From NCBI GenBank assembly GCA_963575745.1, contig CAUYUJ010000228.1, positions 62,001-116,581 on the forward strand: a DNA stretch of 54,581 nucleotides. Reading direction: 5' to 3'. The notes under the pieces were generated by a model. That model worked only from the letters and a program-made list of their open reading frames with translations. It was not told the DNA's origin and made no database searches. Shown piece after piece: positions 5,314-21,896 of the stretch (the first letter of the stretch is position 1; each line of letters begins with the position of its first letter). This DNA comes from Prorocentrum cordatum (Eukaryota). The translations under genes were made by a program, and so were the position numbers.

Positions 5314-7260
5314 TTAGGCATACGTGTTGAAGCACTGCATAATATTGCCGACATCAACCGTGACACCCGCTTCCTGCTGCCTGTAATGCGGGTGTTTGCC
5401 TTTGCACAGGGCTTCCCAGCCGTACTTCGCTGCGCGCGGCGGAGGCGGCTGGCACTTGGCGGCTGACCCGCGGACAGAGGCTCCACTGGAAAGCGCCTTG
5501 CACCTAGTGCAAATAAACAAAACCGAGCCATCAGAGCAGTCGAACGCAATCGTGCGGTGCTCGAGGGCGTCCTGACTGGAGCCGAGAAACCTGAGAACAG
5601 ACCTGGCAAGGGCCTACTCTGAGATCGCTTGCTCTGAGGCAAACAGCACAGCGCCACACTCCAGACCACATTTCCCAGCGATGCCCTGCGGTCGCAGCGG
5701 CAGCGGCATGCGGGGCAGGAGTTCGTCCTACCTCGGAGAGGTCCAAGGTAGGCCACACATGCAAAACATAGACCGCCAGCCTGATAGTCTGGCGTGCCTG
5801 CGTGACAAGCTTACCAGCAGCCGCTAGCTTGTCTGGACACGACGGATGTAGATGCACTGCGTGCTTGGCTGCCGCGTCCGCATGATGGTTGCCGAGGCGC
5901 CTCCAGCGCTCAGCAGCGTCGGTCCCCGCCTCGTCCAGCTCCTTGTGAGCTGCGACTTTAGTGCACGTGGAAGGCGAGATACCTTGGGCATAGAGTTGGA
6001 GGAAAGCCCCAGAGTAGGCCCTCTTCCCACACAGCTGCTCGGCCTTGGGCCGACAGGCTAGATTGACCACGTTGCTGCACTCAGAGAAAACATCTATGCA
6101 GGCCGACGCGATCACATTGGCCCAAGTCCAGCAGCTGAACTCGGCCGACTGAGGCGTCTGAGGATATGGGGCCCACACTGGGGCCCGAATCTCGGCGACG
6201 GCCGACCCTTGGTCGCCGACCATCACCACACTGCAGCCAGCCCTGGAGAGCTCCCGAACAGAGTGACGGCTGCTAGACCCGCCAATGAAAACGCTACCCC
6301 AAACTTCAATGCCAGGCTTAGCCCCAGAGGGCGACGAAATATCTTGGTGGTGCCACACAAGAAACGGGCCATTGCCAGTCTCAGTGAGGGGCCTGGGGTG
6401 CCCATCGGCGGGGTGGCGGAAAGCTCCAGATATAATCACGAACACAGCTTCCTCGTCGTCCTTAGCTGCTAAGGCTTCGGCTACAGTACTAGCGTCAACT
6501 AGAGGAGATCTAAGCTCAGCCACTGGCTCGTGGGGGCACTCCCACAACCTGTGGAAGATCGTGCCCGGGGCGCCGCAGAACGGGCAACTGCCGTCCACGA
6601 GGTAGCCTAAGCTCACAGCACGGTCTCCAGTGAAAAAGGCTTCGGTGGCGAACGCTCTAATGTGGACCTTCTGGAGGGTCGTGTATTTCTTGGAGGCCAG
6701 GGCCTCGCGCAGCACATCATAGCATATCCTCAGGGAAAACCCAAACCCCAAGAGTAGGCCCCAGTCTGGGCCAGCCAGGTCTCCTTGGACCAACGGAGGA
6801 TGGGGGCGGTGGCAGTGCGCCAGCACGGATCATAGTCGAGCAGAGCCGCCGTCGTCAGGGATCTCAGCTGAGATCTAGGTCGGACCACCGAGAAAACTTG
6901 ACGACGGAGGCGAAGCAACTCGAGGTCGCTAGTGCCAGTAATTTCAGCGCCATAAGAAGCACCCGCGAGGGGCCCCGAGGAGAACACCTTAAGAACCTGC
7001 TGCCGAGAGGTGACTTTAATCTGACGCTTTAATCTCTTGGCCGCCCTCACAGACTTGGCGATACGCATTTTGGACTTCACCGAGCGCCCCGCCACCCTAA
7101 GCGCGCGGCCAGCCGTGTAGTGAACGCCTAAGTTGACAGCACTCGGCGTAAAATTACCTCCTAAATGCTCAACAGAAACCTCACCCCCAAGGGCCTTCGA
7201 GGAAGCGACAACAGCGGTCTTACCCAGGGCGAGGGAGCAACCGAAACAAGACTCAACGAT
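5314..7260 (-). pseudogene. Outer ORF2, 3' part: RT thumb, CxxC zinc-binding motif, RNase H-like domain and Cys/His tail (frameshifted)
   Basis: GCSLALGKTAVVAS...NLGVHY (RT domains 6-7). CPFCG...HRLWEC. RNase H pattern VFIGGSS / QTPQSAE / VFSECSNVV / KVAAH / GNHHADAAAK, with two catalytic Asp positions substituted. Frame breaks near 6770 and 5530. Confidence 0.8.
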
Positions 7261-7297
7261 GCCGTAGCCATTTTGGCTCAAGCCATTTTGGCTCAAG
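7261..7297 (+). other. Genomic copy of the dinoflagellate spliced leader (22 nt) followed by a 15-nt relic SL
   Basis: GCCGTAGCCATTTTGGCTCAAG (7261-7282) then CCATTTTGGCTCAAG (7283-7297); exact match to the DinoSL consensus. Confidence 0.97.
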
Positions 7298-7337
7298 CCG
7301 CCCGGCAGCGCGCCCGCCGGTGCCCCCGGCGCCAGCC

Positions 7338-8481
7338 ATGGCTTCCTCGAGCGATGATGAGCCCCTCGTGGCGCTCCCCCGCCCGGCGGGCCCCGGCCCG
7401 GCGCCCGCCCCCGGGGACGCGCCTGGCCGCCGTGTCCGGCCCGGCGGGCTTGGCCGGGGCCGGCCGCCAACGACAACGGCGCGCGCGGCGCTTGAGGCGC
7501 GGAGTCGGCATTCTCTCCACGTAAGAGACCATGGGCCAATCACTTCGGAGGCCATGGGTGATGCCCACCGAGCGACTGGTGTTAAGCCCCTTCAGACGTT
7601 TGTTTATTTTGTCAAGCAGAGGTCCCGTGGTACAGGGGATACCCGCATTGGTAACGTGAGTAGCCCCTTCTTTTGTGAAAATGGTGAGCCCCTTACCTTT
7701 GAACGGGCCTTGGCGGGGGTCAACACCCACGACGCCTCTAAGGAAGATGATTTATTTTTTGCAGCATCTGACCTTTGCGTAGCCCTCGGAGCGGCCACTC
7801 CCACTGAACGGATAGCAGTCCACATTTGGTCACAATATACTCGTAGTGCACAGTTCGTATCGTGTGTTGCGACTGCCGCCAGAGACCCTCATGTCAGTGC
7901 GATCGCTAATGTGGGACACAAAGCGTTAGAAGCCGTGCTTTCATCAGCGTGCTTGGATGGTCCGTGCCTTCCTCGTAAGATCCTTCCTAACGGTAGGTCG
8001 AAGACCCCAAACATAGATGCAGGTCAGCAAACTGCTGGATCTATGGGCGGTCTGCTGCGGGCCTTGCAAGTAGCCGCCGTGCGTTGCCTGGCTGACAGAC
8101 CCAAAGCCAGCCAGCTGGGCAGAGGTCAAAGGTCTGTGCCGGGTCTTACAGGCACGCAACCTCATGCCCAATCATTGCGCGATTGCGCTACACCTGGCAG
8201 GCTTAGCCGATTTGTCAGATTTCTCAGCGGCTGAGCCCACAATGGAAGGCACGAACACCCGTCTAGCATTGAGCATCTTAGATGAGGACGCTGCTGCAAG
8301 GGAACTCAATCTCACGGCCCCGGAGGGGCGGCTCTTGATCCGGATCCTGGCCTGCCAGTGGTGGGTAGTCTGCTCGGCGGTGTATTTTGGAGCCTCGACC
8401 GCTTGGAGATTTGAATCCCGGCTGCATGCAGATTCTGTGCGCCTCGCTGAGGCTTGCAAGGGCAAGCGCAAAAGGTCCTGA
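7338..8481 (+). pseudogene. ORF0: intronless unknown protein (~380 aa) with one probable frameshift near 8080
   Basis: ATG in a gccagccATGg context 40 nt after the relic SL. Frame 1 is open to 8234. An overlapping frame (...AWLTDPKPASWAEVKGLCRVLQARNLMPNHCAIAL...KGKRKRS) is open from ~8074 to 8481. Confidence 0.6.
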
Positions 8482-8542
8482 CCGTGCTTGGCCTGCAGAA
8501 AAGTTGGAGGAAAAGCGCTCCCCACCGGCCTCAGGGGTGTGG

Positions 8543-8590
8543 TGGGCGAATTTCTGACGTTAAGGGCCCTTAACGTCAGAAATTCGCCCA
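8543..8590. repeat. Perfect 48-bp palindrome with no spacer
   Basis: tgggcgaatttctgacgttaaggg|cccttaacgtcagaaattcgccca. Confidence 0.97.
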
Positions 8591-8798
8591 GGGGACTTGC
8601 CCCGCGGTGAATTTCTGTCGTCTTGAGCTTTTTAACATCAGGTAACTGCCCCGGGCATCCTTGAGGCGCACCCGTGCCTTGTGCCGTGATTTGTCGCTTA
8701 TCTAATTGGTCATGCAGTACCTCGTTGCAGTCGTGTTTGCAGAGTCGCCGGCCGTCTGTCGGGCAGCCTCCGGCTGGCCCGGGAGGGGGGTGGGGCCG

Positions 8799-8799
<1 letters not shown>

Positions 8800-8889
<90 letters not shown>
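8800..8889 (+). repeat. (GTC)n microsatellite
   Basis: Direct reading. Confidence 0.95.
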
Positions 8890-9336
8890 GGTGCCCCGCC
8901 GTTGCTGCTGCCGCCGTCGTCGGTGTTCTTATCCAGCCACTTGCGCTGACGCATGCAAGCAGTTTGCATTCACCACGATCGGGGATCCTCTCGGTGTGCA
9001 CTTGATGTGATGGGGGTGTTTCTGTGTTTGCAAGCTCGGCTTCTCTGCCGTTCTATGGGACGATCAGGCATGGGGCAGAGAGCGTCGCCAAATTTGTCCA
9101 CCCCTCCTGGTTCTCCTTGGCCCCCTCCCTCCTTCCCTCCCCGCCCTGCTCCCCGCTCTCTCTCCCCCCCCTGTCTCTCCGTTACCTTGTCACCACCGCC
9201 GCTCCATCATCATTGATTCGTGGAGAGCGTGGGCGGGAGTGCGAGTCACGGCTTGTAGCACTCGTTTTGTTGGACGTCTTCGTCTGCAGCAGCGAGCTCA
9301 CCTCTGGCCTGGGAGGGGGCGGGTGTCCTCGGCGTT

Positions 9337-9357
9337 GTCGTCGTCGTCGTCGTCGTC

Positions 9358-9425
<68 letters not shown>
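9337..9425 (+). repeat. (GTC)n microsatellite
   Basis: Direct reading. Confidence 0.95.
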
Positions 9426-9429
<4 letters not shown>

Positions 9430-9696
9430 CGTGCCCCTGGGGGAGCTCTACCTTTCGTGGGCGTTCCGCTAATCTTGTCCCCATGCCTGTTTGTTGCTGC
9501 TTTCGACCGTTGTTGTACACCGCGCGGTGCCCTCCCCCCCACCCCCGTACCTGCTGTCCGGCCGCCCTCGCTGGGCGTGCGCGGGGAGGAGGTCGGGTTT
9601 GCTCCCGCGCCCCGTGTTGCCTCCGCTGTCCTTTTTCGGCCCAGCGGCCACGAGGGTAGGACGCCCTGGCGCCGCTTCGGCTGGGCCGTCGCGCCC

Positions 9697-11616
9697 ATGG
9701 GGCGCTCGCGCCGCCGCCGCGATGATAGCCGCAGTCGCTCCGGGCGCCGGCGCCGCCGCACCCCATTGCGGCGTCGCCCCAGCTCCACGTCATCTTGTAG
9801 TCCTACGCCACTGGCAGAGTCGGCGGTGGAGGCCCCATCGCCCGGCCGGGAGGGCGTCCCTGGCCCCCTCAGCCCGCACACGCCCCTGCAGCGCCCCCCC
9901 GGCGTCTGGGACCACCCCGAGTTCCCTGGCGTCAGCACCAAAGCTGTGGGCACGCCCCAGGCGCAGCCCGCCCTAGGCTTCTCCTCCCAGCTGGGGTCTC
10001 CAGTGCCACGGTCCCCGGCGACGCCAGTCAGGAGAGCCCGCCTGTCTCCGGCGCCTACCTCGCCTGGCCAGGCGCTCCACAGCTCGCCAGGTCCGCCGCT
10101 CCATAGCCCGCCAGGCTTGCCACCGGGCTGGGAGTCCAAGCGCGACCTCGCGGGCGCCCTTTTCTTCTTCAACCGGGCGACTAACGAGTCTCAGTGGGAG
10201 CACCCGGCGACGGCGCCGCCACCGCCGCCGCCGCCGCCGCCACCCCCGCCCTCGCGTGAGCCCGCCCACCCGAGCGCGCCCGCCAAGCCTGCCCCTGCCT
10301 CCACCCAGCCGGCTGTGGTGGCGCTGGCGCCGTCTCCCGCCAGCGTGGCGCCAGTCCTGGGGCCAGGCCCCCTGCCGCCTACCCCGGTCGCGGCCGCTGC
10401 CCCGGCCAACAGCGAGGCGTCCAGTGCTCTCAAGGCGGGTTCCCCCGTTCCTGGCCCGCTGGGCGCGTCCCGCGAGGAGGAGCTCAGGCAGATCAGGCTG
10501 GAGCTCGAGGCTCTCCAAACCGAGCGCGCCCAGTGGGACGAATTCACCTCATCTTCCACTGGGTTGAAGTTCTGGTTCCACGTGGCGTCGGGGACCATCG
10601 CGCCCACGTGCCCCCCAGAGCTCCTCCAGCGCGCGGCACGCAGCTCCGCCCTCAAGGCCAGGCTGGAGGCCTTGTCGTCGCCGGGGGCCGCGTCTGGCAC
10701 GCATGCGAGCCCATGCCTGGAGTCGGGTCCGGCTTCCCGTCCGGGCGGTTCCGCCGGAGCCGTCCCGCCTTTGGGCCATGCTTCGCCCTCCCCGGCTGCC
10801 CCTCATGGCTTGCTGCGTGAGGTGCCTGAGGAACCCGGCGTGCCCCCAGTCAGTGGTCCCTACTTTGCCGGTAGCCCTTCGGTCCCTGCCAGCCTCCCCA
10901 GCAGCAGCGGTCCAGCGGCATCCACCCCATCCTGGGCGGCTGGCCAGCCGCCGGGCCCCGGCGCGGCTGTGAGCGCGGCAGTATCGGCCCAGGTGCATGC
11001 TAACTCGGCTCCCGCCGCGTCCCCCGCGCCGTCTCTTGGCTTGCCCCCTGGCCCGCCGCTCCCTGCGAGTCTAGTTAGGTTCCACTCGCGTGCTGGACAC
11101 GAGGAGGCCGTGTCCAGCTGGCTCATGCGGCTGCGGCAGACAGTGGGGAACCATAAAGACCCGAGGCTGAAATTGACGGCTCAGTTTGCCTCCAACCTGA
11201 CTTCCCAGGTAGATTTGCACAACGTTGCGCAAGCCATGGGCATACAGATCGTCCAGGGGCCGCGCCGTGGTGCCAATGCTTACGCTGGCCCGCCCCCTTT
11301 CGCGGTGGCCAACGGCTGCCCAGCGCAGCCGAATCTCGACGTCACGACGGCGTTGAATCCCAAGCAGTCTTTGCAAATCCAGCTGCTGAACCGCCGGCTT
11401 GGGACCGTGATCGTTCGCGGTGGCCGGGCGGTTTTGGACACGTGGATTGAAGAATTGATCCTCTTCCTAGGGCCCGTGACCGATTTACAGTCGCCCGTCC
11501 CTCCGGCCTCATCCGCGCCCCTGCTCTGCGCGCCGGCCCCCAAGAGGTCGGCGCGGCAGATCTTGAGCGAGGCGGAAGCCGCCGACCAGGGTGGAGGCCC
11601 GCGGGCCTTCCAGTAA
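9697..11616 (+). CDS. Inner ORF1 (639 aa): RS-rich N-terminus, WW domain, Pro-rich linkers, short coiled coil, second WW-like motif
   Basis: First ATG (gcccATGg) in ORF 9457..11616. LPPGWESKRDLAGALFFFNRATNESQWEHP (~10117-10206) is a canonical WW. WDEFTSSSTGLKFWFHVASGTIAPTCP is a degenerate WW. Lies directly upstream of the APE-RT ORF. Confidence 0.75.
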   Translation: MGRSRRRRDDSRSRSGRRRRRTPLRRRPSSTSSCSPTPLAESAVEAPSPGREGVPGPLSPHTPLQRPPGVWDHPEFPGVSTKAVGTPQAQPALGFSSQLGSPVPRSPATPVRRARLSPAPTSPGQALHSSPGPPLHSPPGLPPGWESKRDLAGALFFFNRATNESQWEHPATAPPPPPPPPPPPPSREPAHPSAPAKPAPASTQPAVVALAPSPASVAPVLGPGPLPPTPVAAAAPANSEASSALKAGSPVPGPLGASREEELRQIRLELEALQTERAQWDEFTSSSTGLKFWFHVASGTIAPTCPPELLQRAARSSALKARLEALSSPGAASGTHASPCLESGPASRPGGSAGAVPPLGHASPSPAAPHGLLREVPEEPGVPPVSGPYFAGSPSVPASLPSSSGPAASTPSWAAGQPPGPGAAVSAAVSAQVHANSAPAASPAPSLGLPPGPPLPASLVRFHSRAGHEEAVSSWLMRLRQTVGNHKDPRLKLTAQFASNLTSQVDLHNVAQAMGIQIVQGPRRGANAYAGPPPFAVANGCPAQPNLDVTTALNPKQSLQIQLLNRRLGTVIVRGGRAVLDTWIEELILFLGPVTDLQSPVPPASSAPLLCAPAPKRSARQILSEAEAADQGGGPRAFQ

Positions 11617-12179
11617 GGGCGGGCTGCTGACTGCCTCCCGCTCGGCTTGCATTGGCGCCGTGTGAATTTTCGGCGGGACACCCCGCTACATGTCCTCTGT
11701 TTTTTCACAGCCACTGGAAGCCTTATGAACCGTATTGTTTGCAGCGTAGCGGTAAAACATGCGTGTCCAACACAGTGCCGCCACGTGCGTGTGTGCCCTT
11801 GTCTGGCGCGTGCGCCCTGCAGCCCGCGTTGCATGCTGACGTGCTCCTTGTTAGCGTGCGCGCGAGTATGGTCCTCCATGCAGTGTCTCGGCAGCTTTGC
11901 AATCAGGGAGTCCGTACGCGCATGACCGAGTTGGTTGATCAGTGTTGCAGTTGCTCTTGAGTTGTGCTTCGCAGTCCTTGACACGCACCGGCTCGCTGAT
12001 TGAGGCCGTCCTTGCCCCGTGTACGTGCGTGCAAGGTTTACCATGCATGCTGTCATCCTCTCTGCGCCCCGCCACGTCCTGCCCGTCTCGCTCCGCCCTC
12101 AGCCGTACAGCAGCCACGCGGCGAACCCGCCGTGCCGCCCGCGGGGGCGCTCGCCGCGCAGGGCGGGAAGTGTCCAGCC

Positions 12180-15100
12180 ATGGACTCCTGTGGGCCTGAA
12201 TGCCCCGCAAAACCTCTGCGTGACTTGATCTTGCGCTGGCTTGGCACGGAGAGCCGCGGCCTAGAAATGTGTGCGCTCGCCAAAGACTGCGATGCACTGC
12301 TAGCTACCTGCCCCTCCCTCCCGCCCCCTCTCTTGCTCTGCTGCAACGGGGCTGCCGCTCCGCTTGCGGCCCTGGTGTCCGCACTTTCGTCGCTGCTGCG
12401 CCGGGAGGTCGCGCCCTCGCTAGCGCGCGCGGGCTTGCGCCAGCAGCCCCGGCAAGTTGTCTCCCCGTACGCTGGGGGAATCCGGCTGGGGGATGCCGTC
12501 CCGTCGCGCCCCGCCGAGGGGCCCGAGCCCTGTAGCTCCGTCCGCCTGGAGGTGCTGAACCCCGGCCGCCTGGGCTTCCTGGCCCTGGGCACTGATGTGT
12601 TCTTGGAGTGGCGCCTCCACGCTGTCGCCCACGTTTTATCCGGGAGTGGCGCCGACATTTGCGTGCTTCCGGGTGCGCGCCTGCCTCCTGGGGCAGTTCT
12701 GCCGGCGGGCTTCCCGTTCTCGTGGCTGGGCCCACGATCGGTCTCTTGGGGCGCGGTCGGTATTTTTGTGCGCACCGAGATTGTCTCGCTCCTCCGCCCT
12801 CTCCCTGACTTGTCCTCTGACCGCGCTCAGTGGTTTGAGTTCTGGGGTGATGCTGCTCCCGGCGCGCCGACTCCTGGCCCGAGCTTTGTTTTCTGCGCGT
12901 GCTACCCCGCCCCGGGCGGCGATGTGGCGACGTGGTCGGCTATTGTTTCCTCCGTCACTGAGGTACGCGCGCGCCACCCGGGTGCGCGCGTCCTGATCTG
13001 TGGCGATGGTAACGTCCACCTGTCCTACGTCTTGCAGCATCCTCCTGGCTGTGCTTGCCTCCACTGCCGCCAGTCGGCGCAAGACCGCACCATCGAGGCT
13101 ATGATCACCGCCGCCGGCTTTGTGGCGTGCAACCCGCCAGTTGCCACGCATGACTCGGGCACGTGCATCGACCTGATCCTCGCCGAGCGCCACTGTCTCA
13201 TTCCTGTTACTGTCGCCCATGCGAGTGGTGTAGATTCGGACCATCGGTTGGTCTCGTGTTCGTTCCCGTGCGCCTTCCGCCCCCCACAGCTGTCAGGGCT
13301 GTGTCGCGTGACGTGGCGCACAGATGGCCAGTGGGACGATGTGCTGCTCGCCGTGGCGCCTGTCCTGGCGTACCTGGCTGACGCCGTCGAATCCCTCATT
13401 GCCTGTGAGTGGCTGCGCCCTCCGTGGAGCGGGGGGGGCGCCACTAAGAAGCAGCGCCGCGCTTTATTGGACGCGGCCGCTTGGGCGCGCGACGTGATTT
13501 ACGTGCTGGCTGGGTTCGCGGCGGGGGCGACTAAGGCGTCCGCGGCAGCCCCCGTGCGCCCGAGTAGGCCTCCGCTAGACCCCGACGCGTACGAATCGCA
13601 AGCTGCTTTTAAAAGGGCTGTTGCGCAAGCCGCGTGGGCCGAGCGCCACCTGGCGTTTAAGCGCTTCTCCGACCTCCGCACGGTCTCCCCTGGTTTGGCC
13701 GAGCGGTTTCTTTCGGAATTTTTTCGGTCGCGGAACCCCTTTGAAATTGCGTTGGCCGACCCGGTCGATGGGCACCCCCTCAGTGTGGAGGAGATGCTCG
13801 AGGCATTGCAGACTGACATGATGGACCGCGTGCGCAATGATTTCCCTTGTAACCCGGAGGAGCAGCGCGCGCAGGCCTGCGCGGTTTCGGCGATCCGGTC
13901 GGTTGGCGCTGGCCCTGCCTCTCCGGGCCTCGCCCTTTACTCGACCACTGAGGTGGATGCCGTCTTAGACAGCTTGAAGACCACCTCCTCCGCGCTCCGC
14001 GGGTGTTTCGCTTCTGTCCGGTCGGCGGTGCCAGAGGGCCGCAGGGTTACCCTAGCCCTCGCGAACCTTTCCCGGCAGTGCGCCATTACGAGCACCCTGT
14101 GGTCGAGCCGGCAGGTGACTCCCCTGCGCAAGTCGGGCCCCCGCGTCGTCCGCTCCACTTTGTGCTTGCGCCCGATTTCTATTTCGGCGGTCATGACGTC
14201 TGTCGTGGATGGCCTGTGGACGTTGCGCAACGCCCCGCTGTTACAGGCGTACTGCGGAGTGGCCCAACAGGGCGGAGTGGGTGACCCCCTCTCTCTCCTC
14301 CTGGCTCTTCTCCTTCATGCCCAACTCCGCTGTGCCCAGGGCCTGCCCACATATTGGGCGGTCACGGATCTTCAGTGGGCGTTTGATGTTGCCTCCCACC
14401 CCGCCATGCTCCTGAATGCCTACGAAGCAGGTGTCCGTGGCCATGATTGGCTTCTCCTTGACGATTTTATGTCGTCCGACAACCAGTACATTGCGCTTCG
14501 CGGCCACATCTCTTCTTTGTTTTCGCTTGGCGGCGGCACGGCGCAGGGCCGTAGGTTCAGCGTGGGTGTTTTCAACGCGCAGCTCAAGTGGCTGGCGGAG
14601 GAGGTGTATCGCGTGCTGCCTGGGAGCTGTGCTGCTTGGGTTGAGCCCCACCTGCGGCGTTTGTGCTTAGCGCTTCCTGTGCCTGATTCCCCTGCCGCGT
14701 GTGGGCCAGCGCCGCCAGCTGTTGGGGGCGACCTCGAAGCCTTGGCTGTCGAGGTGGCGTCGGCAGCTGCCGCGGAGCAGGCGCCCTTCCCGAGTGCCGT
14801 GCGCGCGATGATGCGCGGTGCCCTGCGGCTAGCTTCTGAGGCCGACAGGGCCTACTTGATGGACCGCCTGGGCACGGGCCTGTTGCCCCCACTGCAGTTT
14901 GTTGATGACCTCACGGTTGCCGCATCCTCGCCGGGGGCTCTCCGAGCTATCGTGTCGCGGGAGCCATGGTCAGCCTGCTCGCGGTACGCTAGCCGCACCC
15001 GGTCCATGTTTAATTACAAGACGGGGAAAACCGCGGCCATGGTGATCCTTGACAGCCCCCCGCCGGGGGACATCGGCTGCCCAGTGGTGGATACTAAGGC

Positions 15101-16178
15101 CCTGCTGGGGGTGCTCTTTGACTCCCGGCTCTCTTTCCGCCCCCTGCTTCGGGCTACGCTGGCCAAAGGTCATGAGCTGTTCGAGGCGCTGTTTTTCGCC
15201 GGCGGGTCTGGGGGCTTTGGTCTCCCAGTCCTGTGTGCCCAAGTGCCGTCGCGCGTGGAATCTGCCTTGCTCTACCCCTCCCCGTTCCTCTTCCTGGCCG
15301 AGCGGGCGCGTTTTTCACTCGATCATTTGCAAGCGTCCTGGGCACGGCGTTTGCTCGGATGCGCTATCGGCCCAGAATTGCCCGGCGCGGTTGTCGTAGC
15401 GCAGTGTGGGTGGCAGCTGCGCTTGGGCACTAAGATGCTTGAGCGTACGGTCCTCGCTCGCGCAAGGCTGCTCCTCCTGCCCGCCGAGCACCCGGGTGCC
15501 AGTATGCTGACAGTGGCCTCGGGCACGAGCTGCTCCACGTGGGCGAGCGCGGTCCGGGCGTGGATGTGCTCTCTGGACCCTCCCCTTCCTGACGTGGTAG
15601 AGTGGCCTTTCGCCGGACCTCCGGCGTGCGCCAAGGCGCGCGCTGATCCTGCAGCGCGTCGTCTGCTCCTCCGGAGCTACAAGTTTTATGTCGTCCGCCC
15701 TGCACTCCTTAAGCTGGATCTTCTCTCGTTCCAGCGGGCTACTGCAGATGCCCTGCCTGTCTTTCGTCTCCCGTTCTCGGCGTGGCTGTCCGGCCCGCCG
15801 GGAACGCACTGGAACCTTTTAGATTTGGCACTTGGCCCTGGCTCCTGGCTCCAGTTCCGCCTCTGGTCTGTGGTGCGAATGTCTGGATGCTGGCCTCTCC
15901 AAGTGCTGGGGGCCCCGCTCTGCGTTTCTACGCTGCCCCGTTGTGGGGCTTGTGGCGCGCGTGACGTAGATGTGTGGCATGCCCTCTTTTCCTGCTCAGC
16001 CTCGGCTGAACTTAGGTCCGCTCTGTGGTCTCGCCTCCCCTTGCCTCCTCCCTCCTGTCCTGCCCAGGTTTCTCAGTTTCTCTTCCACCAGTGCCGCCCG
16101 CCAGCGGAGCGCCGTGAGCATGTCCATTTTGTTGCCACGGCCGTGCTCTTGGCCATGACTGGTGCCATGCATCATTAG
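12180..16178 (+). CDS. Inner ORF2 (1332 aa): APE-type endonuclease, reverse transcriptase and C-terminal zinc-knuckle-like motif
   Basis: Uninterrupted ORF starting ccagccATGg. APE motifs: EVLN, CYPAP, ICGDGNVH, THDSGTCIDLI, SDHRLV. RT motifs: LRPISI, QQGG, DLQWAFD, AQGRRFS, QFVDD, LLGVLFD. C-terminus: CGACG...HALFSC. Confidence 0.93.
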   Translation: MDSCGPECPAKPLRDLILRWLGTESRGLEMCALAKDCDALLATCPSLPPPLLLCCNGAAAPLAALVSALSSLLRREVAPSLARAGLRQQPRQVVSPYAGGIRLGDAVPSRPAEGPEPCSSVRLEVLNPGRLGFLALGTDVFLEWRLHAVAHVLSGSGADICVLPGARLPPGAVLPAGFPFSWLGPRSVSWGAVGIFVRTEIVSLLRPLPDLSSDRAQWFEFWGDAAPGAPTPGPSFVFCACYPAPGGDVATWSAIVSSVTEVRARHPGARVLICGDGNVHLSYVLQHPPGCACLHCRQSAQDRTIEAMITAAGFVACNPPVATHDSGTCIDLILAERHCLIPVTVAHASGVDSDHRLVSCSFPCAFRPPQLSGLCRVTWRTDGQWDDVLLAVAPVLAYLADAVESLIACEWLRPPWSGGGATKKQRRALLDAAAWARDVIYVLAGFAAGATKASAAAPVRPSRPPLDPDAYESQAAFKRAVAQAAWAERHLAFKRFSDLRTVSPGLAERFLSEFFRSRNPFEIALADPVDGHPLSVEEMLEALQTDMMDRVRNDFPCNPEEQRAQACAVSAIRSVGAGPASPGLALYSTTEVDAVLDSLKTTSSALRGCFASVRSAVPEGRRVTLALANLSRQCAITSTLWSSRQVTPLRKSGPRVVRSTLCLRPISISAVMTSVVDGLWTLRNAPLLQAYCGVAQQGGVGDPLSLLLALLLHAQLRCAQGLPTYWAVTDLQWAFDVASHPAMLLNAYEAGVRGHDWLLLDDFMSSDNQYIALRGHISSLFSLGGGTAQGRRFSVGVFNAQLKWLAEEVYRVLPGSCAAWVEPHLRRLCLALPVPDSPAACGPAPPAVGGDLEALAVEVASAAAAEQAPFPSAVRAMMRGALRLASEADRAYLMDRLGTGLLPPLQFVDDLTVAASSPGALRAIVSREPWSACSRYASRTRSMFNYKTGKTAAMVILDSPPPGDIGCPVVDTKALLGVLFDSRLSFRPLLRATLAKGHELFEALFFAGGSGGFGLPVLCAQVPSRVESALLYPSPFLFLAERARFSLDHLQASWARRLLGCAIGPELPGAVVVAQCGWQLRLGTKMLERTVLARARLLLLPAEHPGASMLTVASGTSCSTWASAVRAWMCSLDPPLPDVVEWPFAGPPACAKARADPAARRLLLRSYKFYVVRPALLKLDLLSFQRATADALPVFRLPFSAWLSGPPGTHWNLLDLALGPGSWLQFRLWSVVRMSGCWPLQVLGAPLCVSTLPRCGACGARDVDVWHALFSCSASAELRSALWSRLPLPPPSCPAQVSQFLFHQCRPPAERREHVHFVATAVLLAMTGAMHH

Positions 16179-16409
16179 GCCCGGCCTGTTTGCGGGGCGC
16201 CCGGCGTGAGCCCCTGACCGGTGCTTGGGCAGGGGGGTGCCAGGCGTGGGTCGGCACCGTCGTGGCCTGCGCCCAGGGGGGGCGAGCGCGCAGGTCGACT
16301 GTGGTCCGCGTGCGCGCGGTGGCAAAATGCGGCTTGGATCCTCTGCTACCCGCGCCGCGTGCGCGCGCTTCCCACCGTGCCTGCTTGCCTGTCCTGCTTC
16401 TCCTCTGCG

Positions 16410-16770
16410 TTTTCTCTGCCTCACAGTGGTGATGCGGCCCCTGCGGCCCGGTCTGCGTGCAAAATCCTGCCTTACTGTTGTGGTCCCATCGCACATTCTA
16501 TCTTGTTGTATGCTTCCCAGCAGGTGTGTGAGGGTGTGCAGCTGCGTGCAAAAGTCCATGCGTTGTTCCTGCTTCACTGTCGTGATGCGGCCCTGCGGCC
16601 CGTACTGCGTGCAAGTGTCTGCCTCACTGTTGTGTTGCGGCCCCTGCGGCCCGTGTTACGTCCTTATTCCTGCCTCACAGTGGTGATGCGGCCCTTTGTG
16701 GTCCCAATGACCTCGTTTGATTTGACGGTATCGTCTCTCGCACATTCTATCTTGTTGTATGCTTCTCGGC
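16410..16770 (+). repeat. Short direct repeats in the inner 3' UTR
   Basis: About four diverged copies of ctgcctcacagtggtgatgcggccc; two copies of cgcacattctatcttgttgtatgcttc (~16490, ~16739). Confidence 0.8.
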
Positions 16771-16980
16771 TTGTGTGTGTGGGTGTGCTTCTCGGCTTGT
16801 GTGTGTGTGTGTGTGTGTGTGCAGTGCAACTATGCCACGACGTCCCTTTGCGATCGTTGGGTCTGACTTTCCGTTTGGAGGAGCACGCTTCCCGTCTGAC
16901 CTCTGGGGGGGGGGCTGTCGTCCAGTGCCCGCCTCTGTCAGGCAGATTTCGGCTGACCTGCGAGGGGGCTGTTGTCTCTG

Positions 16981-16984
16981 TCGT

Positions 16985-17050
<66 letters not shown>
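16981..17050 (+). repeat. (GTC)n microsatellite
   Basis: Direct reading. Confidence 0.95.
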
Positions 17051-17053
<3 letters not shown>

Positions 17054-17590
17054 CTCTCCGTCGTCTCGTTGGTTTTTGTGTTGTCCCTTGTCTCGTCGCC
17101 GCTCTTGCGTGGTATGCACTCGGAGAAGGGGAGCAGCGGTGCGATGTTGCATGCTTGTTGTCCTCTCATTGTATCCATCTGTTTGCATCATGTGGTGCCT
17201 GTTGTTTTGCTTGCACTTGTTGCTTCTCTTGCCCTGTTCTCTATCTGCTGGCCGCGCACGCGGGGCCGTCGCCCTAGCGTCTCCATTTGGCTGGGGGGGC
17301 CGCCCTCCTATTCGAGGGCAGGCGCCGTCGCCGAGGGGCGCCTTAGGGCGGGTGGGTCGGCGTGGGCTGCGAGCTCTCTTCTTTCTCAAGGGGAGCCTTA
17401 CGAAGGGCGGTGAAAGACCCGACCCTAGACGGAGGCACCCTGCGCTCCGCCTCGCCCACTTCTCTCTGGGGGGGGGTGAGCCGGCGCGCCGCGGGGGTCC
17501 GCGGACCGGGCGCGCGCGGCGAGGGCGCGCGGCGGGCGTCCGGCCTGTGGCCGCCGCAGCGGAGGCAAAAAAACAAAAAAAAAAAAAAAA

Positions 17591-19810
17591 GACGATCGAT
17601 TTGACCACGGTCCGATGTTGGCCCGTACACGAGAGACCCTGGTCGTCGATATACGCATCGAGGTCGAGCCTGGGGATGGAGGGGAGAGAATCGTATCCGC
17701 CCTGGAGAAAAAAACGAATGAACGTGGTGGCCATCGAGCACCCTGCGATAACCCCATCCAGGCAGAAGTAGGGGCCTTCCAGCCACCCTCCTAGACAGAG
17801 GAAGCGCCAACACCTGTAGGCATAAATGCAAAGACGGGCAATCGCAAGAGGGAATCCATGTTTCATGCAACGGGCCTCGAGCTCTTCCAGACTGATGTCC
17901 CCATAGAACTTGCGCAGGTCGAAGAGAACAGAACATGAGGACTCCCCGATGGCAAGGCCCGTCTCGGCGGTGACAGCTTGACGCCAAACCACATCGGCAG
18001 CTCCGCGAAACCTGCCAGCAGCCCAGTACCGTTTGGGGTGTTCTTGCCCCCAGTTCAAGGCAAAGTGCCGCCGACAGCGACACCAAACCCTGTACCAGGA
18101 GCAGAACACCCCAACCGGCCTGTATCCACCAGTAGGCTTCGGCAGAAGCGCCAAGGTGACGACAGAGATCTGCGGAGGAAGGCAGCCTAGCGCTTCCATG
18201 GCCGAAACAATGGCGCTGAGGCAATCGAGAGCAGCATCTGGCAACAAAGAGAAATGCTTGCAGTGAAATCCGTCCACGGCCACAGCCGAAGAATCTTTGT
18301 AGGACTTAGAGATAGCACGGATTTCGCTGGCCGTGGGTCGGGGAAGAGGCTCGACGACCTGACCATCAAACTCTGCCCCTCGACCCTCGCCCCATATGCT
18401 GCTGAACCTCCCTCCCCCCGCCTTGAGCAGGGAGAGAGGATCACTGACGACGCGCCCAGCAGCAGAGAGAGCAGAAGAAGGGACCCACGAGACAGGATCT
18501 TTAATGCACTGGTGAACCCTTGTAGCCCCTTGGTTGGTGCCAACATGCAGCCAAGCATCCCAGTCTGATCGGCACTTGGCGGCGTACTTGGAGCTGGCGG
18601 CCTTGACGGCCTCGTGAACCTGAGTGTGCAGATCAGCGAGCGACCCCACATCCCCGCCAGAGCCAATGGCGGAGACCTCCCGAGCCGCTCGCTTGAACAG
18701 CGGCTCGTAGTCTTCCACCGCGGCCGTGATGCTGGGCGGGGGCCCCACCACCACGCAACTGAGCCTGGCAGCAGTGGCAGCAGCGCCTCCGCGCCGAGCG
18801 TGCATGAAGGCGCGAAGCTGTTGCCCGAGCCAACCGATCGCGCGATGACCAGGATAACGCACCTTACCATCCTGGCCCAAGATAGGTTTCCACACAAGTT
18901 GAGGACCCAAGCCCCTGGAGCCAAGCTTGGGGGGGGGGGGGGAACACCCACCAGGGGAATAAGGTCACGTTCAGCGTGGTCGGCCCACTTCCTGTAAAGA
19001 GGGCCCAGAAGACGTTTGGCCCCCTGACCGTCTCCATTCTGAAGACGACATTCAGCCTCGGACGCCAGCGCAAGTTCCCCAGCCCAACAACTTTCTCTGG
19101 GGGCAGGGCCGAACACCACCTGACACGGCAGGGGGGGGGGCTTCCTGAACGAGAGAGCGTGAAGCACCGCCAGCTTGGGGTGGAACACCAACTGGGCGGG
19201 CCTGTGGGGGGAGAGCTCCGTATCCAATCTCGTATCGACCGACTTGAGACCCTTCGCCAGACCGCCCGAACAAACGAAGTAGTCGAACGTCGTGGGAGGG
19301 CCCACAGGATAGTGCGTCGCGACAACGGGGAAGATGGGGGAAGCCCTCAACTCAGACACAAAACTGGAAGACTCGAGCTCAGCAGGCTCCAGATTAAAGT
19401 CGGCACCGAGCACCCACGGCTGGCCCACAGCCGAAAGCTGCTCACCGAGCCTCGCGAGCAGAGACAGATTATCATCGCTGAGGCCTTCGAGTGGTGAAGG
19501 TAGGCAGAGGCAACCAGGATGGGGGGAGCCCCAGGGAGGTGCGCAGAACACGCGATGCATCGCCCAGGCGTCGTGATGGCATCCTCGACTTCCAGAAGCC
19601 CCATCCAAGAGCGCACGAAAATGGAGGGGCCCAAACCGACTTCCATTCATGCCTTATGCACCAAGCACTGGCCTGCTCGATGTCCCCTTTGGAAACCAGA
19701 CGGTGCTCCCGACCGAGCACAAAGTGGACAGAGCAATCTTCGAGCAAACCCTTCAACGTACCCCACGGGTTGGCGTTAATGGTCTGAATCGTGAGTGGCA
19801 CCAAACTGTC
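17591..19810 (-). pseudogene. Outer ORF2, 5' part: APE endonuclease and RT through the YIDD motif (several frameshifts)
   Basis: APE pieces in three frames: TIQTINAN, LGREHRL, VASAYL, LGADFN, TFDYFV, SPHRP. RT motifs: DGFH, LLPKPTGGYRPVG, FDLRKFY, GVIAGCSMA, AYIDD. One frameshift coincides with the G-run at ~18929-18942. Confidence 0.88.
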
Positions 19811-20360
19811 ACAGTTAGAGGCCGATGGCTGCTCGCTGCCGGCAAAGAGGAGCAGGCACAGGCAGGCTGACATTGCTGACCGAATGCGCTGTCGAATTGA
19901 AACAGTCAGAGGGGTGCTGAGTCCTCTGAGAATCCAAGGGTTCGAATTTGCCCTTGGGGCGTCCTGACTTAAAATCTCAGAGAGCGACGAGCTCAACGTG
20001 GGGATGAGATCCCCCTCCATGGGGGGGGCAGACAGAAGTGGCCACGTGCGGGACAGCCCCGTCCGTGGCATCCTTGCGCGCTGACTTACCAAGGGAGTGA
20101 ACAGGATACAAAGCCCTTGGCATCGCGAAGTCCAGCAAAGACACAGGGGCAAAGACAGGGGTCCGATCAGCCTTGCGTCGAAACATACCCCTCTTGCGGA
20201 TGAGGGCATCTTGCGCTACTGAGCGGGACTCCGTGGGCAGAGGTGAAAAACCTGCTTCGCCCCCCCCTGGAGGCAGCCTTCCGAGCGAAGGACCTGCGGA
20301 CCCCAATCGAACGACGACCCGAGGAGGCGACGAGCATCAGGGCTAGCCTCCAGGGGGTAG

Positions 20361-21701: not shown

Positions 21702-21874
21702 GCCGAGGGAGTGGCTCTATGGACTGACCACCGACCAGCGCATAGCCTAGTCGTGGTGAAAGCTGCGATGCGTGGGGCGGACCACGCACCGCTCAGCCTG
21801 GGGCGAACCAGGCGAAAGTTGAAAGCTGGCCGCGGACTAGCGGTATCCACTTTGTTCCCAGGGGAAACCAAAAC

Positions 21875-21896
21875 CTTGAGCCAAAATGGCTACGGA
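21875..21896 (-). other. Genomic copy of the dinoflagellate spliced leader (22 nt)
   Basis: Reverse complement reads TCCGTAGCCATTTTGGCTCAAG. Confidence 0.97.

What the first reader, a model, noticed from the sequence alone, without database searches (positions are those of the whole stretch)
9697..11616. Retrotransposon ORF1 with WW domains and an RS-rich N-terminus
Seen: an MGRSRRRRDDSRSRSGRRRRR start, one canonical and one degenerate WW, and poly-Pro tracts. No recognisable RRM or CCHC knuckle. Known: LINE ORF1s usually carry RRM, CCHC, PHD or esterase domains. WW and RS regions are typical of spliceosome- and Pol II CTD-associated proteins such as Prp40. Inference: a new ORF1 type that might recruit splicing machinery, which would suit an SL-dependent element.
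Basis: partly seen in the sequence, partly recalled or inferred. Interest (0 to 1): 0.7.

Follow-up and report, generated by a model that had tools for sequence, protein, structure and literature searches.

The report
LINE ORF1 protein with WW domains
A jumping gene of the LINE type in a dinoflagellate genome has a first gene that encodes a WW protein-docking module and a new, conserved C-terminal domain instead of the usual RNA-binding domains, which adds a new design to the short list of known LINE first-gene proteins.

Summary
ORF 9697-11616 (+, 639 aa) has an Arg/Ser-rich start, a bona fide WW domain (Pfam 45.9 bits, aa 141-170), a 12-Pro run and a second, degenerate WW inside a helix-WW-helix module. 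Pfam finds no RRM or CCHC.

It lies 563 nt upstream of an APE+RT ORF2. Both sit in one 10.3-kb retrocopy (7261-17590) that has a DinoSL plus SL relic at its 5' end, poly(A) at its 3' end and a 5-bp target duplication, and that splits another LINE.

Four Prorocentrum cordatum gene models from four contigs have the same order: ORF1-like part, then ORF2-like part. In those copies ORF2 is about 45-52% identical to this one.

The last ~170 aa are the family hallmark. They matched 53 cluster representatives and fold confidently (pLDDT 88.8) into an alpha+beta sandwich with no clear solved relative (best Z 7.0, TBP/KA1-like).

WW-type modules recur in about half of the relatives that have enough N-terminal sequence. 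Some relatives add a RanBP2 zinc finger.

Verdict: this is a real ORF1 of an architecture I did not find described, so a new variant of a known kind. That it recruits splicing machinery is untested.

The parts
7256..7260 (+). 5' copy of the target-site duplication ACGAT
   Evidence: The same 5 bases lie at 17592-17596. The minus-strand LINE frame reads ...VVKSIV | IVESCFG... across the insertion.
7261..7297 (+). Full 22-nt DinoSL (7261-7282) followed by a truncated SL relic (7283-7297); this is the 5' end of the retrocopy
   Evidence: Two exact matches to the SL core, with 0.05 expected by chance. Letters checked. Consensus and its reading as repeated retroposition from PMC6050394. Dozens of contigs in 4 runs diverge exactly at 7262 and at 7297-7298 (table 7).
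7338..8234 (+). ORF0, 298 aa, starting 41 nt behind the SL relic; origin unknown, possibly a 5'-transduced retrogene
   Evidence: No Pfam family and no Atlas hit. No match to relatives' gene models. GC3 is 0.56 against 0.78 for ORF1 and 0.72 for ORF2.
9697..11616 (+). ORF1, 639 aa, pI 10.7, 277 residues predicted disordered
9697..9786 (+). Arg/Ser-rich basic N-terminus (aa 1-30, 15 Arg)
   Evidence: Similar basic RS/RD-rich starts occur in relatives P0067 (also begins MGRSR), P0020, P0074, P0042 and, internally, P0003.
10117..10206 (+). WW1, canonical WW domain (aa 141-170; W145, W167, P170)
   Evidence: Pfam 45.9 bits. Three strands at pLDDT ~88-92. Foldseek gives rmsd 0.6-0.8 A over 32-33 residues and 45-47% identity to ITCH WW3.
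10216..10251 (+). Run of 12 prolines directly behind WW1
10456..10677 (+). Helix - degenerate WW2 - helix module (aa 254-327)
   Evidence: AlphaFold2 elements H254-275, E280-284, E291-295, H307-327 at pLDDT 92-97. With this segment as query, 9 relatives match at E < 0.01 in a 69-sequence set. Alignment.
11089..11589 (+). Family-defining C-terminal domain (aa 465-631): alpha+beta sandwich plus terminal helix
   Evidence: 53 cluster representatives at E <= 1e-3, and every listed best-matching stretch lies in this part. Model pLDDT 88.8. Best structural Z 7.0. pI 10.4.
11617..12179 (+). ORF1-ORF2 spacer, 563 nt with 9 ATGs; possibly enlarged by a 544-bp insertion
   Evidence: An 8-nt direct repeat AGGGCGGG lies at 11616 and 12160. 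In relatives only ~15-40 residues separate the ORF1 end from the ORF2 start motif.
12180..16178 (+). ORF2, 1332 aa: APE-type endonuclease and reverse transcriptase
   Evidence: Pfam Exo_endo_phos 26.6 bits at aa 146-355. A family profile matches the RT of human LINE-1 ORF2p at E 4.9e-5. 15 homologues.
16179..17566 (+). 3' UTR with a 51-nt tandem repeat and a (GTC)n array
17567..17590 (+). Poly(A) tail (A7 C A16)
17592..17596 (+). 3' copy of the target-site duplication ACGAT

Best explanation
This is the genuine first gene (ORF1) of a family of APE+RT LINE retrotransposons of dinoflagellates. The closest named relatives are in Prorocentrum cordatum. The copy in the window is a young, full-length retrocopy with both ORFs intact, made from a spliced-leader-capped, polyadenylated RNA.

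The protein is mostly disordered and basic. It carries three folded modules:
- a canonical WW domain (WW1);
- a helix-WW-helix module whose WW has lost the ligand-binding second Trp;
- a ~150-aa alpha+beta C-terminal domain, which is the one part shared by the whole family.

Most likely working model (inferred, not shown): like other ORF1 proteins, it coats and chaperones the element's RNA. The Arg-rich N-terminus and the basic C-terminal domain would bind nucleic acid. WW1 would dock proline-rich partners: the protein's own poly-Pro tracts, which would give multivalent self-assembly of the RNP, and/or proline-rich nuclear host proteins.

My odds: about 0.85 that it is a true, conserved LINE ORF1 with a functional WW. 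Given that, about 0.5 that WW1 mainly serves self-assembly and about 0.35 that it mainly docks host proteins.
For: Shown:
- ORF1 and ORF2 lie on one strand inside one insertion bounded by DinoSL plus relic, poly(A) and the TSD ACGAT. The insertion interrupts the RT of a minus-strand LINE, whose frame continues across it.
- ORF2 is a LINE ORF2: Pfam endonuclease at 26.6 bits and a profile match to L1 ORF2p RT at E 4.9e-5.
- 4 of 15 ORF2 homologues (P0002, P0003, P0009, P0014, from four contigs) carry an ORF1-like C-terminal domain (E 1e-22 to 1e-27) directly N-terminal of their ORF2-like part. P0009 has a Pfam WW at 33.5 bits and P0003 at 24.0 bits.
- Against P0009, WW1 is the best-conserved ORF1 segment: 65.5% identity, against 39.7% for the C-terminal domain and 45% for ORF2.
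- The C-terminal domain has 53 cluster representatives at E <= 1e-3, 16 of them at <= 1e-10. Many of them end ~30 aa after it, as this ORF1 does.
- In the full-length model, WW1, the helix-WW2-helix module and the C-terminal domain are at pLDDT ~88-97 and the remaining 277 residues are below 50.
- Overall pI is 10.7, the N-terminus 12.0 and the C-terminal domain 10.4.
- A WW-type module is found in 13 of 27 non-redundant family members that have >= 80 aa before the C-terminal domain.

From the literature:
- ORF1 proteins are RNA-binding chaperones (PMC4120745 passages).
- L1 ORF1p needs a positively charged N-terminus (PMC5940361 title and abstract).
Against: - No expression, RNA-binding or interaction data exist. 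No RNA run holds the sequence.
- No known nucleic-acid-binding domain is detected in this copy.
- The C-terminal fold has only middling, non-specific structural matches (best Z 7.0; Foldseek gives nothing at E <= 1e-3).
- Linkage in relatives rests on computational gene models, not on DNA that I could read.
- The other 11 of the 15 ORF2 homologues begin at or inside ORF2 or have unrelated N-termini, so they say nothing about linkage.
- 14 of 27 family members show no clear WW, so the WW is not essential to the family as a whole.
- Of the four linked P. cordatum gene models, WW1 is damaged in P0003 (first Trp lost) and P0002 (second half lost).
- The 2.4 kb with ORF0 before ORF1, and the 563-nt spacer with 9 ATGs before ORF2, make efficient translation of this particular copy doubtful.
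- dN/dS could not be computed.
Confidence: 0.78

Rival explanations
1. One reading: ORF1p is an adaptor that mimics splicing or Pol II-associated factors (WW plus an RS-like region, and a RanBP2 zinc finger in relatives). It would tether the element's RNA to the spliced-leader trans-splicing or transcription machinery, and so secure the SL cap on which the element depends.
For: - The retrocopy starts with a DinoSL plus an SL relic, which means at least two rounds of trans-splicing and retroposition. The neighbouring LINE also starts with a DinoSL.
- The top Foldseek row for the full-length model is the PRPF40A WW tandem (E 8.5e-3). WW1 is 45-52% identical to Pin1 WW variants.
- ORF1 has 25 Ser/Thr-Pro sites.
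- Relatives P0074 and P0067 carry a RanBP2-type zinc finger (21.8 and 15.8 bits, below the cut-off).
- The nuclear WW protein Dinap1 of C. cohnii binds proline-rich nuclear proteins (review PMC5029490, passage read).
Against: - No data on partners exist.
- SL relics are also found on ordinary retrogenes and need no special element-encoded factor (PMC6050394).
- WW1 matches the PPxY-binding ITCH and Nedd4 WW domains as well as it matches Pin1, so its ligand class is open.
- The PRPF40A match has TM 0.08/0.37 and rmsd 15 A, which is only a tandem-WW likeness.
- The RS-like stretch is ~30 aa and there is no RRM.
Confidence: 0.12
2. The WW ORF is a captured or transduced host gene (a Dinap1-like nuclear WW protein) that is carried as a passenger and has no role in retrotransposition.
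For: - LINE ORF1s evolve by domain shuffling and horizontal exchange (PMC4120745).
- The same retrocopy carries another, probably foreign, ORF0 behind the SL.
- Most family members come from unnamed contigs whose context I could not see.
Against: - The ORF1-then-ORF2 order recurs in 4 gene models whose ORF2 parts are only about 45-52% identical to this one.
- The folded modules are conserved while the linkers are not.
- The element has no other ORF1 candidate.
Confidence: 0.07
3. The ORF1-like proteins are ordinary host genes that merely lie next to LINE insertions, and the gene models fused them by accident.
For: Gene prediction in dinoflagellate assemblies often fuses neighbours. P0009 also includes an aspartyl protease, and P0003 a PARP-like piece.
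Against: In the window itself, ORF1 lies inside the retrocopy, between the SL and the poly(A). Four independent accidents with the same order and orientation are unlikely.
Confidence: 0.03

Closest known systems
L1-type (type II) ORF1p: basic N-terminus, coiled coil, RRM, CTD (Pfam Transposase_22)
   Same: It is the first ORF of an APE+RT LINE. It has a basic, disordered N-terminus, short helices and a basic C-terminal globular domain, and its presumed role is RNA packaging and chaperoning.
   Different: No Transposase_22 or RRM match at E <= 5. The C-terminal fold runs beta-alpha-beta5-alpha-beta rather than as an RRM. WW domains are not part of any of types I-IV (PMC4120745). Trimerisation is not shown.
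Type V ('unclassified') ORF1s in the scheme of Khazina and Weichenrieder, as summarised in PMC4120745
   Same: By that scheme this ORF1 would be filed here, because none of the defining domains is present.
   Different: Here the domains are defined: WW, helix-WW-helix, and a conserved new C-terminal domain with 53 cluster representatives.
SymbioLINE-Dnmt of Symbiodiniaceae (de Mendoza et al. 2018, PMC5890265)
   Same: A dinoflagellate LINE whose ORF1 carries a domain not known in other LINE ORF1s.
   Different: That ORF1 carries a cytosine methyltransferase. Those elements are described as lacking poly(A) tails (figure legend read). This one has poly(A) and WW domains.
Dinap1 of Crypthecodinium cohnii (two zinc fingers plus two WW domains, nuclear, binds proline-rich Dip proteins; known to me only through review PMC5029490)
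   Same: A dinoflagellate protein with two WW domains. Relatives of this ORF1 (P0074, P0067) add a zinc finger N-terminal of the WW pair.
   Different: It is not known whether Dinap1 has the C-terminal domain or lies next to an RT.
Tandem-WW splicing and transcription adaptors (PRPF40A/Prp40, Pin1 WW) and PPxY-binding WW domains of Nedd4/ITCH ligases
   Same: The fold and sequence of WW1: rmsd 0.6-1.5 A and 33-55% identity over the 31-36 aligned residues of most single-domain ITCH, Nedd4 and Pin1 rows.
   Different: No FF, HECT or isomerase domain is present. The context is a retrotransposon protein.

Membership tests
WW domain (Pfam PF00397), WW1, aa 141-170 | Profile score above the curated gathering threshold | tested here: met
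   45.9 bits against 26.9, full profile 1-31.
WW domain (Pfam PF00397), WW1, aa 141-170 | Two signature Trp about 22 residues apart, followed by Pro; three-stranded antiparallel sheet | tested here: met
   W145, W167 and P170. Strands 145-149, 155-159 and 164-166. rmsd 0.6-0.8 A to ITCH WW3.
WW domain (Pfam PF00397), WW2, aa 280-306 | Profile match and the second (ligand-binding) Trp | tested here: not met
   No Pfam hit at E <= 5. The position of the second Trp holds Ala/Pro. The predicted strands and the single-WW relatives that keep the Trp (P0041, P0061, P0063) point to descent from a WW.
WW domain (Pfam PF00397), WW1, aa 141-170 | Binding of proline-rich or phospho-Ser/Thr-Pro ligands | not testable with these tools
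   Needs peptide-binding assays.
LINE (non-LTR retrotransposon) ORF1 | First ORF upstream of an endonuclease+RT ORF2, on the same strand, inside one insertion with poly(A) and a target-site duplication | tested here: met
LINE (non-LTR retrotransposon) ORF1 | Linkage to ORF2 kept in diverged copies | tested here: met
   4 of 15 ORF2 homologues (gene models from four contigs) have the ORF1-like part directly before the ORF2-like part. The other 11 are uninformative.
LINE (non-LTR retrotransposon) ORF1 | Nucleic-acid binding or chaperone activity | not testable with these tools
   Only indirect: pI 10.7, with a basic N-terminus and a basic C-terminal domain.
Type I ORF1 (RRM plus CCHC knuckle) | CCHC zinc knuckle | tested here: not met
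   The protein has only 4 Cys, none in a CX2CX4HX4C pattern. No zf-CCHC hit at E <= 5 in 27 family members.
Type I/II ORF1 (RRM; Transposase_22) | RRM fold or Transposase_22 profile | tested here: inconclusive
   No Pfam match. No L1 ORF1p or RRM chain appears among the rows listed by Foldseek or VIA-align. Absence from those lists does not exclude a distant relation.
SR proteins | RRM plus an extended RS domain | tested here: not met
   No RRM. The basic stretch is ~30 aa with 3 RS and 3 SR dipeptides.
Dinap1-like nuclear WW proteins of dinoflagellates | Sequence homology to Dinap1 | not tested
   The sequence is not on hand. The only paper in the library that names it is a review.

The most novel reading that the evidence does not exclude
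The WW / Arg-Ser-rich / zinc-finger ORF1 proteins of this LINE family are splicing-factor look-alikes that couple the element's RNA to the nuclear spliced-leader or transcription machinery. The long-known 'orphan' nuclear WW protein Dinap1 of dinoflagellates is itself a member, or a domesticated descendant, of this retrotransposon protein family. Its published proline-rich partners would then be the first known host interactors of a dinoflagellate LINE.
Probability: 0.15. Interest if true: 0.8.

Novelty: new variant of a known kind. Interest (0 to 1): 0.55.

Why it matters
LINE ORF1 proteins are sorted into a handful of domain designs: RRM+CCHC, coiled coil+RRM+CTD, PHD and esterase. Here is a further, well-defined design. 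It combines a protein-protein docking module (WW) with a confidently folding C-terminal domain that has no Pfam family and no clear solved relative.

The design recurs in at least 53 sequence clusters from marine samples. Dinoflagellate genomes are shaped by massive retroposition, and the proteins that drive it are almost uncharacterised.

This family gives concrete handles for experiments: a WW1 point mutant, a recombinant C-terminal domain, and the Dinap1 lead. These could be used to ask how such elements assemble their RNP and whether they exploit spliced-leader trans-splicing.

Tried and rejected
- Whole genome: none is held, so I could make no census of copies, no dN/dS estimate and no copy-number estimate.
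- Word-indexed search with the whole ORF1: none of 8000 candidates scored, probably swamped by low-complexity words. The 'longer' search with the C-terminal part found only P0002.
- DNA of relatives:
  - The alignment of 53 sequences was too diverse for the search for related loci.
  - With 12 sequences, one 1079-bp metagenome contig (L001) was found. It holds only the C-terminal domain and a stop codon.
  - Viral contigs gave none.
- Names or organisms for 10 family representatives: none, apart from one 'hypothetical protein'.
- Expression: no RNA holder is listed among 24 runs. The four runs laid are DNA-type contigs only.
  - In X2 and X5 the ORF0 part has little or no cover. I do not use this.
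  - Contigs of X1, X2 and X3 bridge ORF1, the spacer and ORF2 as DNA.
- Self-association of the helix-WW2-helix module, two copies: no verdict, score 0.00.
- ESM Atlas, for the C-terminal domain and for ORF0: no usable hit.
- A conserved WW ligand in ORF2: there is no PPxY, and the only LPxY lies in the RT core and is not conserved. The idea that WW1 docks ORF2p has no support.
- ORF2 against PDB as a single sequence: nothing. Pfam RVT_1 is found neither in ORF2 nor in 15 homologues. Only the family profile reached L1 ORF2p.
- The spacer as an intron: a GTAAGG motif overlaps the ORF1 stop codon. By my hand count from the printed sequence, neither nearby AG acceptor restores the ORF2 frame. I ran no systematic splice-site search and had no RNA evidence, so I dropped the idea.
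- Other ORF1 of this type in the window: the C-terminal-domain profile hits only this ORF among 750 six-frame ORFs. tblastn and blastn find no second copy.
- Earlier notes of this scan: none by sequence or nearby.
- Literature:
  - 'non-LTR retrotransposon' + 'ORF1' + 'WW domain' gave 1 irrelevant paper.
  - 'WW domain' + 'ORF1' + 'retrotransposon' + 'dinoflagellate' gave no paper with all four terms.
  - These searches cover only the held open-access library.
Full report
**The observation.**
- The window is GC-rich, 49-77% GC in 2-kb bins and 60-68% around the finding.
- On the + strand it holds an ATG-to-stop ORF at exactly 9697-11616, 639 aa. The protein starts MGRSRRRRDDSRSRSGRRRRR, and 15 of its first 30 residues are Arg.
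- Pfam finds one family, WW (PF00397), at aa 141-170. The match covers the whole 31-position profile at 45.9 bits, E 5.7e-12, against a curated cut-off of 26.9.
- A run of 12 Pro follows at aa 174-185. The protein is 17% Pro, has 25 Ser/Thr-Pro sites and a pI of 10.7.
- No RRM, CCHC, PHD, esterase or Transposase_22 match appears even at E <= 5.
- Long ORFs alone mean little here: antisense ORFs of 135-258 aa overlap this one. The domain match and the homologues below show that the gene is real.

**The surroundings.**
- ORF2 starts 563 nt downstream on the same strand, at 12180-16178 (1332 aa). It has an Exo_endo_phos endonuclease domain at 26.6 bits.
- Pfam RVT_1 does not see its reverse transcriptase, and a single-sequence search of PDB finds nothing. 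A profile of ORF2 with seven homologues (A3) does match the RT part of human LINE-1 ORF2p (8c8j, 8uw3, 9k6g, 9hdo, 8sxt) at E 4.9e-5 to 4.3e-4.
- The dinoflagellate spliced leader occurs three times in the window, against 0.05 expected.
  - At 7261-7297 (+) there is a full 22-nt DinoSL followed by a truncated relic. PMC6050394 (passages read) takes this pattern as the mark of repeated retroposition.
  - One DinoSL lies at 21875-21896 (-).
- A poly(A) tract (A7 C A16) lies at 17567-17590 (+).
- The poly(A) cuts a minus-strand LINE just behind its YIDD box. Its reading frame ends ...TGQHRTVVKSIV at 17593 and resumes IVESCFGCSLALGKTAVV... at 7260. ACGAT is duplicated at both junctions.
- So 7261-17590 is one 10.3-kb retrocopy of a single SL-capped, polyadenylated RNA. 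Its parts, in order:
  - ORF0 (7338-8234);
  - a repeat-rich stretch;
  - ORF1;
  - the spacer;
  - ORF2;
  - a 1.4-kb 3' UTR.
- No second copy exists in the window. No whole genome is held.

**Is the WW ORF linked to ORF2 elsewhere?**
- ORF2 has 15 database homologues at 36-57% identity in the best aligned segment. Ten are named as Prorocentrum cordatum, one as Polarella glacialis and one is a EukProt entry.
- Four of them (P0002, P0003, P0009, P0014; contigs of 340,844, 714,592, 1,776,845 and 298,245 bases) contain a segment homologous to ORF1 aa ~455-605. That segment lies directly N-terminal of the ORF2-like part (E 1e-22 to 1e-27, 36-41% identity).
- The other 11 begin at or inside ORF2 or have unrelated N-termini, so they cannot speak to linkage.
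- P0009 has a Pfam WW above threshold (33.5 bits). P0003 has one below it (24.0 bits). P0002 keeps only the first half (11.2 bits). P0014 begins in the second half of a WW.
- Against P0009, WW1 is 65.5% identical, the C-terminal domain 39.7% and ORF2 about 45%. WW1 is therefore the most conserved piece of ORF1.
- These are computational gene models that fuse the two ORFs. They show adjacency and order, not a fused protein. Many relatives end about 30 residues after the C-terminal domain, as this ORF1 does.

**The family.**
- An exhaustive HMMER search with ORF1 aa 255-639 found 53 cluster representatives at E <= 1e-3, 16 at <= 1e-10 and one at <= 1e-30. Every listed best-matching stretch lies in the C-terminal part. 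The best hit is 78% identical.
- Ten representatives that I looked up come from unnamed ENA, NCBI, JGI and Logan contigs of 1-8.5 kb.
- With cluster members and the four gene models I had 66 sequences, all with the C-terminal core. Of these, 32 have at least 80 residues before it. Dropping five same-cluster duplicates (P0034, P0071, P0072, P0075, P0076) leaves 27.
- Pfam WW in those 27:
  - 2 are above the gathering score (the window and P0009);
  - 7 are at E <= 0.02 (adding P0003, P0021, P0041, P0050 and P0063);
  - P0002 is at E 0.41;
  - 19 have nothing.
- I also used the window's own WW segments as phmmer queries against the 69 sequences then held. E-values there are lenient because the set is small.
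  - The WW1 segment matched 9 others at E < 0.05.
  - The helix-WW2-helix segment matched 9 others at E < 0.01.
  - The union is 12 others, which gives 13 of 27 non-redundant members with a WW-type module. Fourteen show none or only faint traces.
- In members with a single WW (P0041, P0061, P0063) the module at the WW2 position keeps both Trp. In the two-WW subfamily (the window, P0009, P0021, P0020, P0034) it has lost the second Trp.
- A basic RS/RD-rich N-terminus recurs in P0067 (which also begins MGRSR), P0020, P0074, P0042 and P0003.
- P0074 and P0067 add a RanBP2-type zinc finger, at 21.8 and 15.8 bits, both below the cut-off of 27.

**Structure.**
- With 53 aligned sequences (A1), the last 193 residues fold at mean pLDDT 88.8 and pTM 0.74. 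The order of elements is helix, strand, helix, six strands with a helix before the last one, then a terminal helix.
- Foldseek finds nothing at E <= 1e-3 in PDB or in BFVD.
- VIA-align against 48,161 chains gives a best Z of 7.0 (RnlA NRD, rmsd 3.8 A over 98 residues). It is followed by spermine synthase and AdoMetDC domains, the CPSF73/100 C-terminal domains, the METTL16 VCR, KA1 domains and TBP, at Z 6.9 to 4.8.
- The tool itself warns that a Z of 7-8 is typical for models without a true relative. I therefore call the fold an alpha+beta sandwich of the TBP/KA1 kind with no identified homologue. No RRM or L1 ORF1p chain was listed, which is inconclusive.
- The full-length model (A4, 48 sequences; mean pLDDT 65.7) shows three confident modules:
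  - WW1, strands 145-149, 155-159 and 164-166;
  - the helix-WW2-helix module, 254-327 at pLDDT 92-97;
  - the C-terminal domain.
  - 277 residues lie below pLDDT 50.
- WW1 superposes on ITCH WW3 at rmsd 0.6-0.8 A with 45-47% identity, and on Nedd4 and Pin1 WW domains. The PRPF40A tandem WW heads the list at E 8.5e-3 but with poor TM. The ligand class of WW1 cannot be told from this.

**How it most likely works.**
- Shown: position, linkage, conservation of three modules, basic charge, disorder.
- Inferred, by analogy with other ORF1 proteins (PMC4120745; PMC5940361 title and abstract):
  - ORF1p binds and packages the element's RNA through its Arg-rich N-terminus and its basic C-terminal domain (pI 12.0 and 10.4).
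  - WW1, sitting next to the protein's own proline tracts, supplies proline-directed contacts. These could be in trans between ORF1p molecules (multivalent RNP assembly) or with proline-rich nuclear host proteins.
- The splicing-recruitment idea remains possible but has no direct support. SL relics are also found on ordinary retrogenes.
- A lead worth testing: review PMC5029490 (passage read) describes Dinap1 of C. cohnii as an orphan nuclear protein with two zinc fingers and two WW domains that binds proline-rich nuclear proteins. This resembles the zinc-finger-bearing relatives. I could not obtain its sequence. Only that review names it in the library.

**Caveats for this copy.**
- ORF1 is preceded by 2.4 kb that includes ORF0.
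  - ORF0 has a GC3 of 0.56, against 0.78 for ORF1 and 0.72 for ORF2.
  - It has no relatives.
  - It may be a retrogene picked up when the leader was spliced onto an upstream acceptor.
- The 563-nt spacer has 9 ATGs. In P0014, P0009 and P0003 only ~15-40 residues separate the end of ORF1 from the ORF2 start motif. An 8-nt repeat, AGGGCGGG, brackets 544 nt of the spacer. That call lists 11 direct-repeat families of 8-27 nt in the same 800 bases, so this is only a hint of an insertion.
- Near-identical DNA is present in runs of 11 studies. Five runs hold half or more of the sampled words. Contigs of X1, X2 and X3 run through ORF1, the spacer and ORF2 with 0-6 differences each. This shows presence, not independent copies.

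**Comparison and novelty.**
- PMC4120745 (passages read) lists five ORF1 types: I (RRM+CCHC), II (coiled coil+RRM+CTD), III (PHD), IV (esterase) and V (unclassified). This ORF1 would fall in type V, but it has a defined architecture.
- PMC5890265 (passages read) describes another dinoflagellate LINE with an unusual ORF1, which carries a DNA methyltransferase.
- My searches for a WW-bearing LINE ORF1 found nothing relevant. They cover only the held open-access library.
Two elements in this window agree with it.
- I rate the finding a new variant of a known kind, and of moderate to good interest for people who work on retrotransposons or on dinoflagellate genomes.

Noticed in passing
window 7261-7297 and 21875-21896 (-): Both full-length LINEs in this stretch begin exactly with the dinoflagellate spliced leader. 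The plus-strand one has a full leader plus a truncated relic, which means at least two rounds of trans-splicing and retroposition.
   Followed up: partly
window 5531-7260 and 17591-21896, minus strand: A second, unrelated LINE is split by the 10.3-kb insertion. It has a DinoSL, a coiled-coil-like ORF1 at ~20216-21701, an endonuclease at 18187-19650, and an RT cut behind its YIDD box and continuing at 7260 downwards, with a further ORF reaching 5531. Its ORF1 lacks the C-terminal domain described here.
   Followed up: partly
window 7338-8234 (+): ORF0 (298 aa) starts 41 nt behind the SL relic. It has a lower GC3 (0.56) than ORF1 and ORF2, and no family or relatives were found. It may be a retrogene carried along at the 5' end of the LINE RNA.
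   Followed up: partly
window 8544-8589: A perfect 46-nt palindrome (GC-clamped arms around GGGCCC) lies in the stretch between ORF0 and ORF1. Other notes on this genome mention hairpin motifs in mobile elements.
   Followed up: no
window 8747-8888, 9296-9429, 16927-17069: The same module, a G-rich lead-in followed by a (GTC)n array, occurs three times: twice upstream of ORF1 and once in the 3' UTR (79-87% identity over 119-142 nt).
   Followed up: no
window 11617-12179: The inter-ORF spacer is 563 nt with 9 ATGs. An 8-nt repeat AGGGCGGG at 11616 and 12160 brackets 544 nt. One X1 contig skips 11845-12125. Relatives have a much shorter gap, so the spacer may hold a later insertion.
   Followed up: partly
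proteins P0074 and P0067 (relatives, no DNA on hand): ORF1 relatives carry a RanBP2-type zinc finger between the basic N-terminus and the WW modules. This architecture recalls the published description of Dinap1 (two zinc fingers, two WW).
   Followed up: partly
proteins P0003 (aa 177-230) and P0002 (relatives): The gene models have a PARP-like catalytic fragment upstream of the ORF1-like part (Pfam PARP E 0.011, below threshold). It is either a neighbouring gene or a further upstream ORF of those copies.
   Followed up: no
window 16566-16694: A 51-nt tandem repeat (2.5 copies) lies in the 3' UTR of the element.
   Followed up: no
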